Below, piece by piece: positions 1-22,259 of a stretch of DNA of 64,000 nucleotides. Where the stretch lies: contig OZ024740.1 of NCBI GenBank assembly GCA_964016885.1, positions 182,962,001 to 183,026,000 on the forward strand. Reading direction: 5' to 3'. Under the pieces are notes generated by a model that searched no databases, was not told the DNA's origin, and saw nothing but the letters and a program-made list of their open reading frames with translations. The position numbers were made by a program, and so were the translations under genes. Position 1 is the stretch's first letter; every line of letters begins with the position of its first letter. Source of the DNA: Eledone cirrhosa (Eukaryota).

Positions 1-1335
1 CTCACCCTCTTTTAACAAAAGCATTAAATTTTGCTAAAAAGTTTATTAATATTTCTGATATTGAAGGGAGTGTCATTTTGCATGCTAGAAATACATTACT
101 GTTTACTAATAATGATACTTGGGTAAAAAAATCTAACCCAGAGAACCCCTTCGATGTCTCAATGGGTTCTTTTGACAGTGCTGACGGGTGTGATTTAGTC
201 GGCCTATTCCTCCTCTACACACTTAAAGAGAAATTCCCTAACCATACCATTGGGCTTTATCATGACCATGGTCCAATACTTTCCGATACTACTATAGGCC
301 ATAATTTAGACAGATTCAGGAAAGACTTAATAAAAACCTTCGCTAGATTTAATCTTAAAATTACAATTGACACAAACCTTTCTAATGTTAATTTTCTAGA
401 TATAAACATAGATCTGCCTACTACTTCTTATAAACCGTACCATAAAACTAATGAAAATTTAAAATACATAAATAACGGCTCTTGCCATCCTCCTATAGTA
501 TTTAAAAATCTCATCCCTAATATTAGCTGTAGGTCTCCACCCTCTCTTCCTGAGAAACTATTTTCAATAAGGCAGCCCCCTACTATAATAAAGCCCTTCA
601 AAATAGTGGATCTAGTGAACTGATGAAGTACATACCTAACAATACTAACTCCTTTAAACATAATAATAGGAAAAGAAAAATAATCTGGTTCACACCCCTA
701 CTCTTTAGCAGTTAAAACTAATGTCGGCAAAAAATTCCTAGAGCTCTTAGATAAACATTGCCCTAGAACACATAGATACTATAAGATCTTCAATAGAAAC
801 TGTGTCAAAATCAGCTACTCCTGCGGTCCCTCTATTAAATCTTATATCCTTAATAAGAAAACACCCAGAAAATATCAAAATTGCTCCTGTAGAGTCAAAA
901 GTGAATACCCATTACAAGGTAAATGCAACACCAAAGCCATTGTATATGAGGCCAAAGTGACAACCACCAGCAATAACCTACCAGCCACCAGCGAACGATA
1001 TGTGGGTATGACACAAGACAAATTCAAAACGCATTATTACTCACATGTTGCATCTTTCCGACACCCTGAAAAAAAGATTTACAACAGCTCTGGCTAGCAG
1101 AATTTGGGATTTGAAGGACCAAGGTATCCAATATAAATTAGATTGGTCAATTTTGAACCAATCTAAAGAATACGCAAGAGGAACAAGAAGAGGCGCACTC
1201 TGCATAAGTTAAAAATATTGGATTTTACAGAACCTTAAATCACCAAAAACTTGTCTAAATGCAAAGACAGAAATTTTCCCCAGTTGCCCACACATGAAAT
1301 CACACTTGCTTTCCAGCTCATATAAACTTAACTCA
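1..1335 (+). mobile_element. Penelope-like retroelement (Naiad-like), decayed RT + GIY-YIG endonuclease, running off the window start
   Basis: ORF 78-623 has PLE RT motifs (FDVSMGSFDSADGCDLVG, degenerate YHDH for YRDD, VNFLDI, YKPYHK, SCHPP). Frameshifted continuation reads IIWFTP, KISYSC, CSCR..PLQGKC..IVYEAKV..YVGMT and ends ..CPHMKS. Confidence 0.85.
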
Positions 1336-1911
1336 CTTTCAGATACTTATCGTCCATAAACTCTTATTCTTCACTTTCCTTAACTTACCTTTTTTTATAG
1401 ACTTCTCATTCAGTTTTACTTATCTTCTATTTTTACTTTACATCCACAAGTGAACCTCGCCCCCTGTTATTTGATTCTTTAAATTTATATCTTAACAATT
1501 ATACATTATTTACATTTATTTTACTTCCCCTTTTTCTTTCACTACCAGACATCACATGTCACTTGTGTTTTTAACTCCAGATATTTTCCGTTGTCCCTCA
1601 ACCGCTTGTATGTATGTATACTTGCGTGTATTTTGTACCCTTTTATTCATACGGTTGTTTTTTTTTATATATGTATGCAAGCGTATGTGTGCATGTATGT
1701 GTATACGTGTTTGTATATGTATACGAACGCATTCGTATGTGTGTGTGTGTGCATGTGTGTGTGTGTGTGCGTGTACGTATATGTGTTTTCACATGTATAT
1801 ATATATGGTCGCGTGCGTGGGTGTGAATAGATGTGCATGTATGCATATATATGTGTATATGTATGTATATATGCGTGTATATGTATGTATGTATGCGTGT
1901 ATCTGTATGTA

Positions 1912-2154
1912 TCACTATAAAAGCTTCACGGCACAGGCATTGCTTTATATCTGGAGATCTCTCTGCACTTGTCGTCACATGGTACCATGGGCCCAGCACT
2001 ATGTGTCAATAATTGTCACAAGTGTAGTGTTTGTACCAGAGTTTTCATGTCGCAGGCTGGACTAAAAAGTCACACTCGTTCAGCGCATTGGTAGGGGTTC
2101 TCCTACATGGATATAAAGTAGTGGCCGTACTCGAAAACGAGTTGGCAGCCACCA
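1912..2154 (+). mobile_element. RTE-derived non-autonomous retroposon, 5'-truncated copy
   Basis: Near-identical to 18404-18657, 21601-22002 and 49542-50075(-). Includes a C2H2-like remnant (CSVCTRVF..LAGLKSH) and ends gttggcagccacca before a TA/TG tract. Confidence 0.75.
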
Positions 2155-2584
2155 TATGTATGTATGCGTGTATGTGTATGTATGCTTTTGTGCACGCGTT
2201 TTTGTCTGTATGTATATATATTTATATATATATGTATGTAGTAAGAGCTTGTTCGCGTAAATGCATGTTTTCTACTTTTTATTTATTTTTTCTTGTGTTA
2301 CTTTATATATTACAACCCCTCCCACTTACTTTCTCTTTGCCTTAATTTTTTTTTTATTCTTATCTTATATATTATTTCATTTATTTTCATATTTTATATT
2401 TGTATCGACCTCCGTCTGACACTGCGTTGACTTTATACACTCTCTTCCCTGTATGTATCACATACTTGTATGTGTTTGTGCGTGTGTGTATGTTTATACG
2501 CGTGCGTCTTTTCATCGTTGTATGTGTATATATTTCAGTCCTTAGTCCCTAAGTCTGTATGTATGCTAACTCCATTATCTTACA

Positions 2585-3180: not shown

Positions 3181-3258
3181 AATTACTTTGTCTGACGAAC
3201 GAATGCGGACGTTTCTTGTATTCGTCTTATCCGGAAAACCTTTGGTAATGAGGTAATT
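3181..3258 (+). ncRNA. Type I hammerhead ribozyme, degenerate
   Basis: aattactttgt-CTGACGA-[acgaatgc..gtattcgt]-cttatccg-GAAA(A)-cc ttt gg-TA-atgaggtaatt. Stem I pairs with G-U wobbles, there is one extra A, and stem II is rearranged. Same family as 22260-22317. Confidence 0.6.
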
Positions 3259-3460: not shown

Positions 3461-3524
3461 ATTTTATTATATATGTTTCAGAGGTACTGAGATGTTTCCT
3501 CAGTACGTCCTCATCAGATTAAAT
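3461..3524 (-). ncRNA. Minimal type I hammerhead ribozyme
   Basis: Minus strand reads atttaat-CTGATGA-GGACGTACTGAG gaaacat CTCAGTACCTCT-GAAA-catata-TA-ataaaat. Stem II is 11/12 paired. Lies in a segment flanked by (TA)n. Confidence 0.75.
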
Positions 3525-3604: not shown

Positions 3605-3689
<85 letters not shown>

Positions 3690-3711
3690 TATATATATAT
3701 ATATATATATA

Positions 3712-4379
3712 TAGCTAACACGCTAACAAGATGATAGCTAACAAGCTTGAAACTAGTACATCGTTCCTGTGTCAGTGTTGAACAAAAAGGTGACGTGGTT
3801 GCCTTAACACCGTGCGGCATAAATTCAGGCTGTTCAGTTTGTTTACAAACGAACAAAGCGGACGCTATAATAAGCGTCCGCTAAACTGATGCGTACATAT
3901 ATGTATGTGTACCTGTACGTATATATATATATATATATATATATATGCATGCGACTGTACGTCTGTATACATATATGTATGTACGTATACATACATACTT
4001 ACATTTAAGTAAGTGCCGTACTAAGAGTGAGAAATGAAACTTCGTTTTCATTTTATTACAACTCATCGTTTTCGGTGCGCCTGACCGATTTAACTCACTC
4101 GATATGCAAATTAGGCTGCTCAGCCGTCAATTTTCATAAGGAAAGTATATATTTTCGAACGTTAAACTATCTGGCAGATGGGTATACGGTGTTGATGATA
4201 GCTAACAAGCTTGAAACTAGTACATCGTTCCTGTGTCAGTGTTGAACAAAAAGGTGACGTGGTTGCCTTAACACCATGCGGCATAAATTCAGGCTGTTCA
4301 GTTTGTTTACAAACGAACAAAGCGGGCGCTATAATAAGCGTCCGCTAAACTGATGCGTACATATATGTATGTGTACCTG

Positions 4380-4455
<76 letters not shown>

Positions 4456-4567
4456 TGCTACTGTACCTCTGTATTCATATATGTATGTACGTATACATAC
4501 ATACTTACATTTAAGTAAGTGCCGTACTAAGAGTGAGAAATGAAACTTCGTTTTCATTTTATTACAA

Positions 4568-4569
<2 letters not shown>
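3712..4569 (+). mobile_element. Tandem array A (~1.8 x 464 bp) of HHR-containing unit, retrozyme-like
   Basis: Direct repeat with GAAACTAGTA at 3749 and 4213. Internal (TA)n, no real ORF, flanked by (TA)n. Confidence 0.8.
4186..4228 (+). ncRNA. Minimal type I hammerhead ribozyme with C3-to-U core mutation
   Basis: acggtg-TTGATGA-t agct aaca agct t-GAAA-ctag-TA-catcgt. A 5'-truncated copy lies at 3730-3764. Confidence 0.75.
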
Positions 4570-4626
<57 letters not shown>

Positions 4627-16989: not shown

Positions 16990-18300
16990 AAAATCGTCGT
17001 GGATGTAAGGCTTAAAGAGCAGAGAAGTTCAAGGTGGTTGAGTCATCGTAGGAATGTCAATCCAGTTACAGAGCAGATGTGATTTCAGGTGAGGACAACA
17101 TCTGAAGATCTTGGTCTTGGAGTTCAGGCAAGTTGAAGTGGCTTTCAAATTTTGTAGAATTCGAAATTTTTTACTTACTGCCTCTTTTAAACCTTATCAT
17201 AAACCTAACGAAAATCTAAGATATATGCACAAAGAGTCTTGCCATCCCCCTATAGTTTAAAAAAATGTATTCCCAATATTAGCCGTAGGATTTCTACCTT
17301 ATCTTCGTTTCTAGACATTTTTAACAAAGTCACCTCTTATTATAATAAAGCCCTTAATAACAGCTGCTTTACAGAACATATTAAATATTTACCTACTCCT
17401 CCCCATAAAACTAATCAGGAAAAGGAAAATTATTTGGTTTACACCCCCTTCTCTCTAACTGTCAAAACTAATGTAGAAAGGAAATTCCTTGACATGTTAG
17501 ACAAACATTTTGCCCCTAATCATAGATATTTTAAGATATTTAATAGAAATGTAGTTAAAATCAGTTACTCTTGCTGCCCATCAATGAAGTCTAAAATCAC
17601 CAATTCTAATCGTACGAGAATAAATCCAGGATGCAGATGCAGGAATCCGGATGAATGCCCATTACAGGGCAAATGTAATACCAGATCCGTTGTATATGAG
17701 GTCAAAGTGACACATTTGATTAACAACCAGCCAGCCAGGAGTGAACGATATGTTGGCATGACTCAGGACACGTTCAAAAGCAGGTTTTATGCTCATCTCG
17801 CTTCTTTTAAACACTCTGATAAAAGAACAGCAACGGCTCTCGCAAATAAGGTGTGGGAATTCAAAGATAAAAACATCCCGTACTCTATCGATTGGTCTAT
17901 TTTAGACCATTCGAAGGAATACCAAAGGGGCACAAAGAATTATTCTTTGTATACCACTGAAAAATTTAGAATTCTACAAAATTTGAAAGCCACTTCAACT
18001 TTCCTGAACTCCAAGACCGAGTTCTTCAGATGTTGTCCTCACCTGAAATCAAATCTGCTCTGTAACTGGATTGACATTCTTACGATGACTCAACCACCTT
18101 GAACTTTTTCTCTGCTCTTTACGCCTTACATCCACTACGATTTTTATTACTCTCTGAACTCACTTTCTGTACCCTTATATTCTTTTTCTCCCTTATCTCC
18201 CCTTATATTCAAACTTTTCCCTGTTATTTATTTTCTTTATTCCCCTTACTTTCTACCTTACCGTTTACATACCGACCTTTTTTATTTATAGGTATTTATT
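16990..18300 (+). mobile_element. Penelope-like retroelement (Naiad-like), 5'-truncated, with upstream inverted copy of its 3' end
   Basis: ORF 17239-18102 has the RT thumb and GIY-YIG (CRCRNPDECPLQGKC..VVYEVKV..YVGMT..FKSRF..H..CCPH). 16990-17175(-) duplicates ~17960-18148. Confidence 0.88.
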
Positions 18301-18403
18301 TCTGTGTGTATGTATGTATTCTGTATATGTGTATATATGTATATATATATGTATCTATATATGTGTATATACTTATATATATGTGTATGTATATGTATGT
18401 GCA

Positions 18404-18654
18404 GTGCCTTTGCTCACTATAAAAGCTTCATGGCACAGGCATTGCTTTATATCTGGAGATCTCTCTGCACTTGTCGTCACATGGTACCATGGGCCCAGCA
18501 CTATGTGTCAATAATTATCACAAGTGTAGTGTTTGTACCAAAGTTTTCAAGTCGCTGGCTGGACTAAAAAGTCACACTCGTTCAGCGCATCGGTAGGGGG
18601 TTCTCTTACATGGATATAAAGTAGTGGCCGTACTCGGAAACGAGTTGGCAGCCA

Positions 18655-18657
<3 letters not shown>
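18404..18657 (+). mobile_element. RTE-derived non-autonomous retroposon, 5'-truncated copy
   Basis: Same family as 1912-2154. Encodes CSVCTKVFKSLAGLKSHTRSAHR*. Confidence 0.75.
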
Positions 18658-18716
<59 letters not shown>

Positions 18717-19132: not shown

Positions 19133-19235
<103 letters not shown>

Positions 19236-19279
19236 AAGTTAAATAAAAGTCAAATGATTAAAATTTAGCTTCGTTTATT

Positions 19280-19334
19280 ACTGCTATATATATTTCAGTG
19301 ACAGCCATCTTTGGCTGTGACCTCTTCAGGCAGT
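19280..19334 (-). ncRNA. Minimal type I hammerhead ribozyme (left-arm copy)
   Basis: Reverse complement of 19563-19617. Confidence 0.85.
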
Positions 19335-19562
19335 TTGAATTAGTATGGTATAGACAAGTACATATGTTGTTTAGGTGTATAATATTTCAATACTCTGATA
19401 TGCCCACTTCCTTGTTGGGTTGTTATTTCAATGAGGAACTGAAGTCATATGACTCCAGTTCCTCATTGAAATAACAACCCAACAAGAAAGTGGGCATATC
19501 AGAGTATTGAAATATTATACACCTAAACAACATATGTACTTGTCTATACCATACTAATTCAA

Positions 19563-19617
19563 ACTGCCTGAAGAGGTCACAGCCAAAGATGGCTGTCACT
19601 GAAATATATATAGCAGT
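19563..19617 (+). ncRNA. Minimal type I hammerhead ribozyme (right-arm copy)
   Basis: ACTGC-CTGAAGA-ggtcACAGCCA aaga TGGCTGTcact-GAAA-tatata-TA-GCAGT. Intact core with a palindromic stem III loop. Confidence 0.85.
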
Positions 19618-19758
19618 AATAAACGAAGGTAAATTTTAATCATTTGACTTTTATTTAACTTTATTTTATACTACTCCGGAGTAACCAAACCAACCTGCGC
19701 ACACTGTCGAGTGCTCCAGCCTGCATACTGGGTGTTGGTATACAACCAACATAAACTC

Positions 19759-19879
<121 letters not shown>

Positions 19880-19923
19880 GTAAGTATGTATGTATACGTA
19901 CATACATATATGTATACAGTAGC

Positions 19924-19980
<57 letters not shown>

Positions 19981-20161
19981 CTTACATTTAAGTAAGTGCC
20001 GTACTAAGAGTGAGAAATGAAATTTCGTTTCATTCTATTCCATTTATCGTCTTCGGTGCACCTGGCCGACTGAACTCACTCGATATGCAAATTAGGAGAG
20101 TATATACTTTCATAAGGAGAGTATATACTTTCGAACGTTCAACCATCTGGTAGAAAGGTAT

Positions 20162-20204
20162 ACGGTGCTGACGATAGCTAACAAGCTTGAAACTAGTACA
20201 TCGT
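20162..20204 (+). ncRNA. Minimal type I hammerhead ribozyme, intact
   Basis: acggtg-CTGACGA-t agct aaca agct t-GAAA-ctag-TA-catcgt. Predicted cleavage after 20198. Confidence 0.9.
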
Positions 20205-20354
20205 TCCTGTGTCAGTGTTGAACAAAAAGGTGACGTGGTTGCCTGAACACTGTACGGCGTAAATCAGGCTGTCGTTTGTTTACAAACGAACAAAGCGAAC
20301 ATTATAATAAATGTTCGGTAAACTGATACGTACATATATATATATGTGTGCCTG

Positions 20355-20397
<43 letters not shown>

Positions 20398-20630
20398 GCT
20401 ACTGTACGTCTGTATACATATCTGTATGTGCGTATACATACATACTTACATTTAAGTAAATGCCGTACTAAGAGTGAGAAATGAAATTTCGTTTCATTCT
20501 ATTCCATTTATCGTTTTCGGTGCGCCTGGCCGACTGAACTCACTCGATATGCAAATAAGGCTGCTCAGCCGTTAATTTTCATAAGGAAAGTATATACTTT
20601 CGAACGTTCAACCATCTGGCAGAAAGGTAT

Positions 20631-20673
20631 ACGGTGCTGACGATAGTTAACAAGCTTGAAACTAGTACATCGT
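20631..20673 (+). ncRNA. Minimal type I hammerhead ribozyme, intact
   Basis: As above, with a U-G wobble in stem II (agtt/agct). Predicted cleavage after 20667. Confidence 0.88.
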
Positions 20674-20821
20674 TCCTGTGTCAGTGTTGAACAAAAAGGT
20701 GACGTGGTTGCCTGAACACTGTACGGCGTAAAGCAGGCTGTCCGTTTGTTTACAAACGAAACAAAGTGAACATTAAATAAATGTTCGGTAAACTGATACG
20801 TACATATATATATATGTATGC

Positions 20822-20925
<104 letters not shown>

Positions 20926-21053
20926 GCTACTGTACGTCTGTATACATATATGTATGTACGCATACATACATACTTACATTTAAGTAAGTGCCGTACTAAG
21001 AGTGAGAAATGAAATTTTGTTTCATTCTATTCCATATATATATATATATATAT

Positions 21054-21250
21054 ATAGGAACCAGTAAGACCCCGACAGCTGATCTCAAGCCGTTTCGACG
21101 GCTAATTCTGGAGTCCAGAATTAGCCGTCGAAACGGCTTGAGCTCAGCTGTCGGGGTCTTACTGGTTCCTATTACACACTCTACTACCCCAAGTATTGAG
21201 TACTTTGGTGCGTTATGGTCCACCCGGTTCCTTACCACATTTCCTTCGTT
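21054..21250 (+). mobile_element. pLTR-like end with fold-back palindrome (21054-21172)
   Basis: 59-bp arms around 21113. Partial relatives at 18812-18862 and 9700-9786. Flanked by (TA)n. Confidence 0.65.
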
Positions 21251-21600
21251 ATATATATATATATATATATAAATATGTATATGTGTGTGTGTATGTATAT
21301 ATTTATATTTATGTATGTGTATATGTATGTATTGCTTACCACGTGCGTTTGTTTATTTATTTTTATTTGTGTCCTTTCTTGTATCGCTGTCAACTTAATA
21401 ATAAGTTTTATTTTCTTAATTCTTATTTTTTATATTTTTATTTGTATGTGACGGCCTATTGCATTATATGGTTGTTCATTGTTTTTTTATTTTTTCTTAT
21501 AATTAATTGTGTGTGTGCGTATGTAGGTGTATATATATCTATATATGTGTCTGCGTATGTATGTGTGTATATATGTGTGTATGTTTGTATATTATGGAAA

Positions 21601-22002
21601 GATGACCCCTTAACCTTTGTCAAGGCAGAATTCTAGGAGAAGGAAAACTCTGATATAACACCTACAACCCTGATGGTATCCAATGATGTTGACTTGTTCT
21701 TCTTTTTGGTAAATATCATATTGGTTAAGAGAGTGGGACTGGCTTTGTGTACTGCCTTTGCTCACTATAAAAGGTTCACGGCACAGGCATTGCTTTATAT
21801 CTGGAGATCTTTTTGCACTTGTCGTCACATGGTACCATGGGGCCAGCACTATGTGTCAGTAATTGTCACAATTGTAGTCTTTGTACCAGAGTTTTCAAGT
21901 CGCTGGCTGGACTAAAAAGTCACTTGTTCAGCACATCGGTAGGGGTTCTCCTACTTGGATATAAAGTAGTGGCCGTACTCGAAAACGAGTTGGCAGCCAC
22001 CA
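21601..22002 (+). mobile_element. RTE-derived non-autonomous retroposon
   Basis: Longer copy of the 1912-2154 family, containing ctaggagaaggaaaactctga. Confidence 0.78.
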
Positions 22003-22259
22003 TGTATGTATACATATATATATATATATATGTATATATATATGTGTGTTTGTGTTTGTGTATTTATGTGTATATATGTGTGTGTACATATATATATATA
22101 CGTATATGTGTGTATGTATATGTGTGTGTGTGTGTGCATGTGTTTTTATCTACTTTTATATTTATTCTTTTTCCTTTCCTTCTTCCTTCTCTAGCCTCAC
22201 TTTCATATATATTATATTTTTGTTTTAAAATCCACTGTCAATAAATACACCAGGATTTG

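What the first reader, a model, noticed from the sequence alone, without database searches (positions are those of the whole stretch)
3712..4569. Both retrozyme-like arrays stop at the same point in the unit but start at different points
Seen: array A ends ..gaaatgaaacttcgttttcattttattacaacc|(TA)n at 4569 and array B ends ..gaaatgaaattttgtttcattctattcca|(TA)n at 21034. Both ends fall just after the same small hairpin, about 340-365 nt past the cleavage site. The 5' ends differ: A is truncated inside the HHR, while B has a short inversion at 19880-19928. Inference: site-specific RT priming on a circular or multimeric RNA at (TA)n targets, running more than one unit. This argues against satellite-type unequal crossover.
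Basis: partly seen in the sequence, partly recalled or inferred. Interest (0 to 1): 0.75.

Follow-up and report, generated by a model that had tools for sequence, protein, structure and literature searches.

The report
Twin-primed Penelope-type hammerhead retrozyme arrays
Both arrays are copies of a very abundant 465-base non-coding repeat with a hammerhead-ribozyme motif whose insertions end at one of two fixed points, one on each side when an insertion has two arms, so they were likely pasted into TA repeats by a Penelope-type retrotransposon enzyme that would start copying the RNA at both points and often run on for more than one unit.

Summary
The unit (464-469 nt, type I hammerhead motif) has at least 15,130 copies. 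Of 79 arms chosen by the ribozyme motif alone, 73 end at one of two fixed points: S1 (42; both window arrays) or S2, about 57 nt upstream (31), nearly always in (TA)n. Inner 5' ends are scattered. All 68 head-to-head inserts with both ends callable pair S1 with S2; array B's 'inversion' is its S2 arm. This is the known Penelope-like element (PLE) 'tail', which in vitro work ties to two internal reverse-transcriptase start sites. Coding PLEs in this genome show the same two ends. Arms are often not nested (17 of 42), often exceed one unit (50 of 67 inserts), usually share one haplotype, and cross the cleavage site without pile-up. That favours two primings on a monomer-repeating template, possibly a circle. 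Circularity, cleavage, expression and the driver enzyme were not shown. Verdict: new member of the animal non-LTR retrozymes / non-autonomous PLEs. Earlier scan notes report the same twin-arm-plus-tail layout for other hammerhead families in this genome.

The parts
3607..3713 (.). (TA)n target, left of array A
   Evidence: sequence
3714..3729 (+). 16-nt stutter of hammerhead stem II sequence at A's 5' junction
   Evidence: sequence
3730..4569 (+). Array A: single arm of about 1.7 units, 5'-truncated inside the hammerhead, ending at fixed site S1
4187..4227 (+). Type I hammerhead motif of A; core C3 is mutated to T in this copy; predicted cleavage 4222|4223
   Evidence: this variant has only 15 exact matches genome-wide
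4512..4569 (+).
4570..4615 (.). (TA)n target, right of array A
19864..19879 (.). (TA)n target, left of insert B (after a (TC)n run)
19880..19928 (-). Short inverted arm of insert B; its outer end is fixed site S2 (unit position about 245)
19929..19975 (.). (TA)n spacer where the two arms of B meet head to head
19976..21034 (+). Long arm of insert B, about 2.2 units, ending at S1
20163..20203 (+). Type I hammerhead motif, core intact; predicted cleavage 20198|20199
20632..20672 (+). Type I hammerhead motif, core intact, one G-U in stem II; predicted cleavage 20667|20668
21035..21056 (.). (TA)n target, right of insert B

Best explanation
The arrays are copies of a protein-free 465-nt hammerhead repeat whose inserts end at two fixed points 57 nt apart, and they were likely inserted by a Penelope-like reverse transcriptase/GIY-YIG endonuclease supplied in trans. 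Shown: fixed ends S1 and S2, (TA)n flanks, scattered inner ends, strict S1+S2 pairing in head-to-head inserts, arms longer than one unit, one haplotype per insert in most cases. Inferred: the enzyme, probably a dimer, cuts both strands of a (TA)n tract; one DNA end primes cDNA at S1 and the other at S2 inside the RNA; each cDNA runs a variable distance through the cleavage junction and on into further units; the two cDNA ends then join head to head through short microhomology, or one cDNA joins the far flank and gives a single arm such as array A. The template is most likely a monomer read repeatedly (a ligated circle after hammerhead cleavage, or a monomer re-entered by precise jumps); a fresh homogeneous multimer is the alternative.
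For: Ends: 42 S1 + 31 S2 of 79 arms anchored on the first 100 hammerhead 25-mers of contig 1 (22 of the 79 curated by eye). TA flank 52 of 57. Genome-wide 6,239 against 7 forward matches and 934 for one exact S2 variant. Pairing: 68 of 68 callable two-armed inserts are S1+S2, none same-type; 18 more had an uncallable end. Two primings: 17 of 42 inserts with a resolved junction have arms that each hold sequence the other lacks; arm lengths uncorrelated (rho 0.00); either arm can be the longer. More than one unit: 50 of 67 inserts, both arms in 18. Same template: arm-to-arm distance median 1.7% against 5.9% to other inserts in 44 inserts; 10 sample-private variants shared across both arms; 13 of 22 multi-unit arrays have no variant shared by a subset of units; array-specific interrupted TA spacers repeat in every unit of young arrays. 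No pile-up of 5' ends at the cleavage site: 12 against 12 at a control position. Enzymes exist: RT + GIY-YIG frames, and three coding families plus two other hammerhead families also show a short and a long end 39-100 nt apart. Literature: PMC11167929 shows a PLE protein cutting and extending both strands at AT-rich DNA, starting at two internal sites that delimit the tail, and predicts a dimer.
Against: No coding PLE sharing sequence with the unit was found in 80 coding loci or upstream of 20 further tail matches, so the driver is unidentified. The partner arm is the closest or tied sequence in only 25 of 44 inserts, and several are 5-10% apart. Nine of 22 arrays show variants shared by subsets of units, two young ones in non-adjacent patterns a pure monomer circle would not give. 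Of five inserts whose second arm is from another family, two are short+short rather than complementary. Rfam hammerhead models do not match, and cleavage was not tested. Target-site duplications cannot be read in (TA)n.
Confidence: 0.82

Rival explanations
1. Same PLE-driven twin priming, but the template is an uncleaved linear multimer transcript (or two transcripts of one donor array); no circle is involved.
For: PMC11167929 found hammerhead cleavage dispensable in vitro and unprocessed RNA the main substrate. No stop at the cleavage site fits an uncleaved RNA equally well. Subset-shared variants in 9 of 22 arrays.
Against: Subfamilies differ by up to about 20%, yet most arrays are homogeneous down to the interruption pattern of the fast-mutating TA spacer. 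No case of a multi-unit variant pattern kept in register across both arms was seen: in the 14-unit insert one cross-arm pair shares 6 derived bases while its neighbours share 0, which looks like later conversion.
Confidence: 0.35
2. One priming only; the inverted arm arises when the first cDNA (or an antisense RNA) folds back and is copied, and the endonuclease trims it, leaving the tail on one side.
For: Proposed for PLE inverted repeats (self-priming in PMC3846280; endonuclease-mediated resolution in PMC8557442). Explains the shared haplotype. 25 of 42 resolved inserts are nested and so compatible.
Against: 17 of 42 are not nested either way; rescue needs extra asymmetric deletion at the fold. 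Single-armed inserts end at S1 or at S2. Foreign second arms occur. Both sites are start sites in vitro for another PLE (PMC11167929).
Confidence: 0.12
3. Satellite-type DNA expansion by unequal crossover or slippage, with ends set by recombination in TA runs.
For: Unit contains a TA spacer; some long arrays show later conversion or duplication. The 2026 preprint cites this as the usual model for satellite growth.
Against: Ends are not in the internal TA spacer but at two fixed unique-sequence points; thousands of dispersed sites; inverted arms with strict S1+S2 pairing; old arrays are star-like.
Confidence: 0.03
4. A and B are parts of one segmental duplication.
For: A 350-nt repeat lies 1.2-1.5 kb left of both arrays.
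Against: That repeat is dispersed (11 hits in 9 of 121 stretches; also right of B); immediate flanks and right flanks are unrelated; units differ by about 10% and belong to different subfamilies.
Confidence: 0.01

Closest known systems
Metazoan non-LTR retrozymes (Cervera and de la Pena 2020, PMC7229834; Li, Clavereau and Pollet 2026, bioRxiv 10.64898/2026.07.22.740005)
   Same: Non-coding tandem repeats, one type I hammerhead per unit, low GC, dimers to multimers, many thousands of copies, PLEs present in the genome and proposed as the mobilising partner.
   Different: Those papers, in the parts read, do not map insertion ends. Here the ends, target and twin-arm geometry are measured. Circular RNA and self-cleavage, shown for coral, mussel and axolotl, are untested here. 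No sequence match to a coding PLE's pseudo-LTR was found, unlike 21 Xenopus cases.
Endonuclease-bearing Penelope-like elements (PMC11167929, PMC8557442, PMC3846280)
   Same: 5' truncation, partial tandems, inverted head-to-head copy, tail on one end only, two internal start sites, AT-rich or (TA)n targets, hammerhead with a short palindromic helix III.
   Different: No open reading frame; tail about 57 nt against the 30-40 nt usually quoted (39-100 nt across families of this genome); described as 'optional' or 'often at one end' in print, but strictly one long and one short end in 68 of 68 here; both arms can be multi-unit concatemers.
LINE-1 twin priming
   Same: Both target ends prime cDNA, giving an inverted 5' part joined by microhomology.
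   Different: In LINE-1 the second primer lands at a variable site next to where the first cDNA stops. Here the second site is fixed, the arms overlap in sequence, and the S1 arm's inner end abuts S2 in only 1 of 67 inserts.

Membership tests
Non-LTR retrozyme | Tandem non-coding repeats with one type I hammerhead per unit | tested here: met
   core intact in 66 of 79 sampled units (7 of the rest are the C3 variant that selected for); stems I and II keep pairing; an older subfamily changes both sides of one stem I pair (by eye). No Rfam hammerhead match.
Non-LTR retrozyme | Dispersed, high copy number, no LTRs or coding capacity | tested here: met
   15,130 exact 25-mers, plus an older subfamily the 25-mer misses; no PLE protein match over the arrays.
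Non-LTR retrozyme | Self-cleavage of the transcript | not testable with these tools
   Motif only; helix III is minimal and palindromic, the type reported to need a dimer (PMC4209133).
Non-LTR retrozyme | Expressed as monomeric linear and circular RNA | not testable with these tools
   No RNA run was listed; only contigs of unrecorded kind were laid.
PLE-mobilised non-autonomous element | Two fixed 3' ends delimiting a tail, present on one end of an inverted insert | tested here: met
   73 of 79 arms; 68 of 68 two-armed inserts.
PLE-mobilised non-autonomous element | Variable 5' truncation, partial tandems, inverted 5' copy | tested here: met
   106 inner starts spread over the unit, 9 in the S1/S2 windows.
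PLE-mobilised non-autonomous element | AT-rich or (TA)n target | tested here: met
   52 of 57 against 6-13% background.
PLE-mobilised non-autonomous element | Sequence shared with the pseudo-LTR of an identified coding PLE | tested here: inconclusive
   None in 80 coding loci from about eight families out of more than 10,000 candidates; three inserts carry the 3' end of a coding family as second arm.
Autonomous PLE | ORF with RT and GIY-YIG endonuclease | tested here: not met
   The unit has no such frame; such frames lie elsewhere in the genome.

The most novel reading that the evidence does not exclude
A dimeric PLE enzyme binds one circular 465-nt RNA, primes both ends of a cut (TA)n tract at two fixed sites, and both subunits roll round the circle, so that each insert is a pair of back-to-back concatemers of a single monomer. 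These arrays would then be the first genomic footprint of twin rolling-circle reverse transcription, explaining both the one-sided PLE tail and how animal retrozyme 'satellites' are born at full length.
Probability: 0.35. Interest if true: 0.75.

Novelty: new member of a known kind. Interest (0 to 1): 0.47.

Why it matters
How animal hammerhead repeats spread, and why PLE insertions carry inverted copies with a tail on one side, are both open questions; the link between retrozymes and PLEs has rested on co-occurrence and sequence similarity. This family gives mechanistic counts: two fixed starts, strict pairing, non-nested arms and multi-unit read-through. It names a short defined RNA with two predicted start sites, a defined target and candidate enzymes with intact frames, so the published in vitro PLE assay could test circle against multimer directly. 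The kind of element and the tail signature are known, and the scan has already noted the same layout in other families here.

Tried and rejected
Rfam: no hammerhead match at gathering score or at E up to 10. Search for the coding parent: GIY-YIG search and 50 loci, a Hydra-like RT search and 30 loci, 20 loci with a variant tail (all were an older non-coding subfamily); none joined an ORF to the unit. Twelve longer stretches of the Hydra-like family were fetched but not analysed. Expression: no RNA holder listed; contigs of three runs were laid and show only that the repeat is present, also in a run labelled as a second organism. Linear self-cleaved monomer as the main template without re-entry: no excess of 5' ends at the cleavage site. 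LINE-1-style abutting arms: 1 of 67. Register-preserving copying of a mixed multimer into both arms: not seen. Covariation: RNAalifold on 12 tail regions gave no pair changed on both sides; a long-range pair (unit 56-259) switches C-G to U-A in 16 of 79 units, one inherited event; my register for the hairpin at unit 100-122 was wrong, so those rows are uninformative. The automatic end-caller failed on 22 of 79 arms (indels, nested insertions); these were read by eye: 10 S1, 6 S2, 6 other. Reverse-strand counts are inflated by overlapping matches, so only forward counts are used. A sequence look-up of earlier notes found nothing for this unit. A tail hairpin common to all families (suggested by note e1-9869566) was looked for only by eye and by BLAST and not seen.

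Full report
Observation. The window holds two arrays of one repeat unit, 464 nt in A and 469 nt in B. Each unit has a type I hammerhead motif with a 5-bp stem I, a 4-bp stem II and a minimal palindromic helix III; predicted cleavage falls at 3758|3759, 4222|4223, 20198|20199 and 20667|20668. Rfam does not recognise it, so the assignment rests on the core motif, kept pairing in 79 sampled units and the description of such motifs in PMC4209133 (passages seen). A ends at 4568-4569 and B at 21034, both just after the same hairpin and both in (TA)n. A starts inside the hammerhead after a 16-nt stutter; B has an inverted piece at 19880-19928. The arrays are 89-92% alike, while units within A are 98.6-100% and within B 96-98% alike; flanks share only a dispersed repeat.

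Genome-wide ends. An exact 25-mer across the cleavage site occurs 15,130 times in the 3.0-Gb genome; an older subfamily is missed by it. I fetched all of the first 100 matches on contig 1 (61 stretches), a set chosen without regard to ends, and followed each arm to its 3' end. The two windows cover 10% of the unit. TA repeats follow 52 of the 57 script-called ends, against 6% of window positions and 13% of nearby DNA. Genome-wide, hairpin-then-TA has 6,239 forward matches and a control position 7; one exact S2 variant has 934. Inner 5' starts are spread: 9 of 106 fall in the two windows, and about 24 lie unresolved in the TA spacer. S2 lies in the loop of a predicted hairpin and S1 in the single-stranded stretch after the next one; both carry a few U/A bases that match a TA primer.

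Two arms. Many inserts are head to head, with 3' ends pointing outward. In all 68 with both ends callable (30 in the unbiased set, 37 in loci from other searches, and window insert B) one end is S1 and the other S2; 18 more had one or both ends uncallable. So B's inversion is its S2 arm, and A is a single S1 arm. Among 67 measured inserts, arm lengths are uncorrelated, either arm may be longer, 50 have an arm above one unit and 18 have both. In 17 of 42 with a resolved junction each arm holds sequence the other lacks, which a simple fold-back copy cannot give; the S1 arm abuts S2 in only 1 of 67. Many junctions overlap by a few bases.

Template. Arms of one insert differ by a median 1.7% against 5.9% to other inserts (44 inserts); the partner is the closest or tied sequence in 25 of 44, and 10 variants private to an insert in this sample are shared by both arms. 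Of 22 multi-unit arrays 13 have no variant shared by a subset of units, and young arrays repeat one array-specific interrupted TA spacer in every unit. 5' ends do not pile up at the cleavage site (12 against 12 at a control site). This points to a monomer read repeatedly, such as a circle. Against that, 9 of 22 arrays do show subset-shared variants, two young ones in non-adjacent patterns, and one old array has a cross-arm pair sharing 6 derived bases while neighbours share none, so conversion, local duplication or mixed templates also occur. Circularity is inferred, not shown. A mutated hammerhead core, as in array A, has only 15 scattered matches, so dead cores do not seem to amplify.

Driver. 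The genome has over 10,000 GIY-YIG candidates, long RT-endonuclease frames and a young family with an 821-residue open frame and 40 identical RT matches. Three coding families and two other hammerhead families each show a short and a long end, 39 to about 100 nt apart. None shares sequence with this unit. Five inserts seen by inspection have a foreign second arm, three from coding Neptune-like families and two from the family at window 21057-21251; three are long+short and two short+short. The driver is therefore not identified.

Mechanism. Most likely a PLE protein in trans cuts both strands of (TA)n; the two ends prime at S1 and S2; each cDNA runs a variable number of units; the cDNAs join head to head or one joins the flank. 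Ends, pairing, target, lengths and haplotypes are shown; enzyme, dimer, cleavage and circle are inferred.

What is known. PMC11167929 (abstract, main text and part of methods read) shows a purified PLE protein cutting and extending both strands at AT-rich DNA, starting at two internal sites that delimit the genomic tail, with a predicted dimer and hammerhead cleavage dispensable. PMC8557442 and PMC3846280 (passages) describe inverted copies, a one-sided tail and (TA)n targets, and offer self-priming or endonuclease resolution as causes. PMC7229834 (passages and discussion) defines animal retrozymes, shows circles in three species and proposes tandem cDNA from circles by PLE enzymes. The 2026 preprint (parts 1-3 of 5) links retrozymes to PLE pseudo-LTRs by similarity. 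PMC13282606 (passages) was read as background and mentions no ribozymes. Five searches turned up no paper mapping retrozyme insertion ends or reporting strict pairing; the library is incomplete. Earlier, unreviewed scan notes describe the same twin-arm-plus-tail layout for other families in this genome; none matched this unit by sequence.

Verdict. A real, well-supported feature and a new member of a known kind. The added value is the quantitative geometry, which favours two primings on a monomer-repeating template and sets up a direct test.

Noticed in passing
window 21057-21251: Head-to-head foldback of another abundant family, in (TA)n right after array B; short end on one arm, 80-nt tail on the other. 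The same two ends recur in many loci; another copy near window 18817.
   Followed up: partly
window 19231-19762: Near-perfect foldback with a different type I hammerhead motif in both arms and a tail of about 95 nt on the right arm, in (TA)n/(TC)n just left of insert B. Three PLE-type inserts thus sit in one microsatellite cluster.
   Followed up: partly
window 3477-3517 (-) and 3192-3236 (+): Two further hammerhead-like motifs left of array A, each near TA runs.
   Followed up: no
window 9-691, 879-1293, 17111-18042: Decayed fragments of Hydra-like PLE coding sequence, 30-44% identical to the young 821-residue family.
   Followed up: no
window 1828-2183, 18324-18686, 21762-22086: Three copies (87% alike) of a dispersed 350-nt repeat that often follows TA/TG microsatellite.
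   Followed up: partly
L211, L213, L226, L234 and related loci: Very young Hydra-like PLE family with intact 821-residue frames, its own hammerhead and inverted tailed copies; over 43,000 first-look candidates. A likely active element.
   Followed up: partly
L030:606, L053:1254, L158, L057, L178: Chimeric two-armed inserts: one arm from this retrozyme, the other the 3' end of a coding PLE or of another hammerhead family; the foreign arm has the short end in all five.
   Followed up: partly
L020-L023 / L193 and L014-L015 / L191: Young long arrays (11-12 and 7 or more units) whose few variants are shared by non-adjacent units, suggesting unit shuffling during or after insertion.
   Followed up: partly
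L182-L189: Recurrent arm junction joining unit positions 7 and 67 through a 4-nt complementary match, in either arm assignment; enriched by the search pattern that found them.
   Followed up: no
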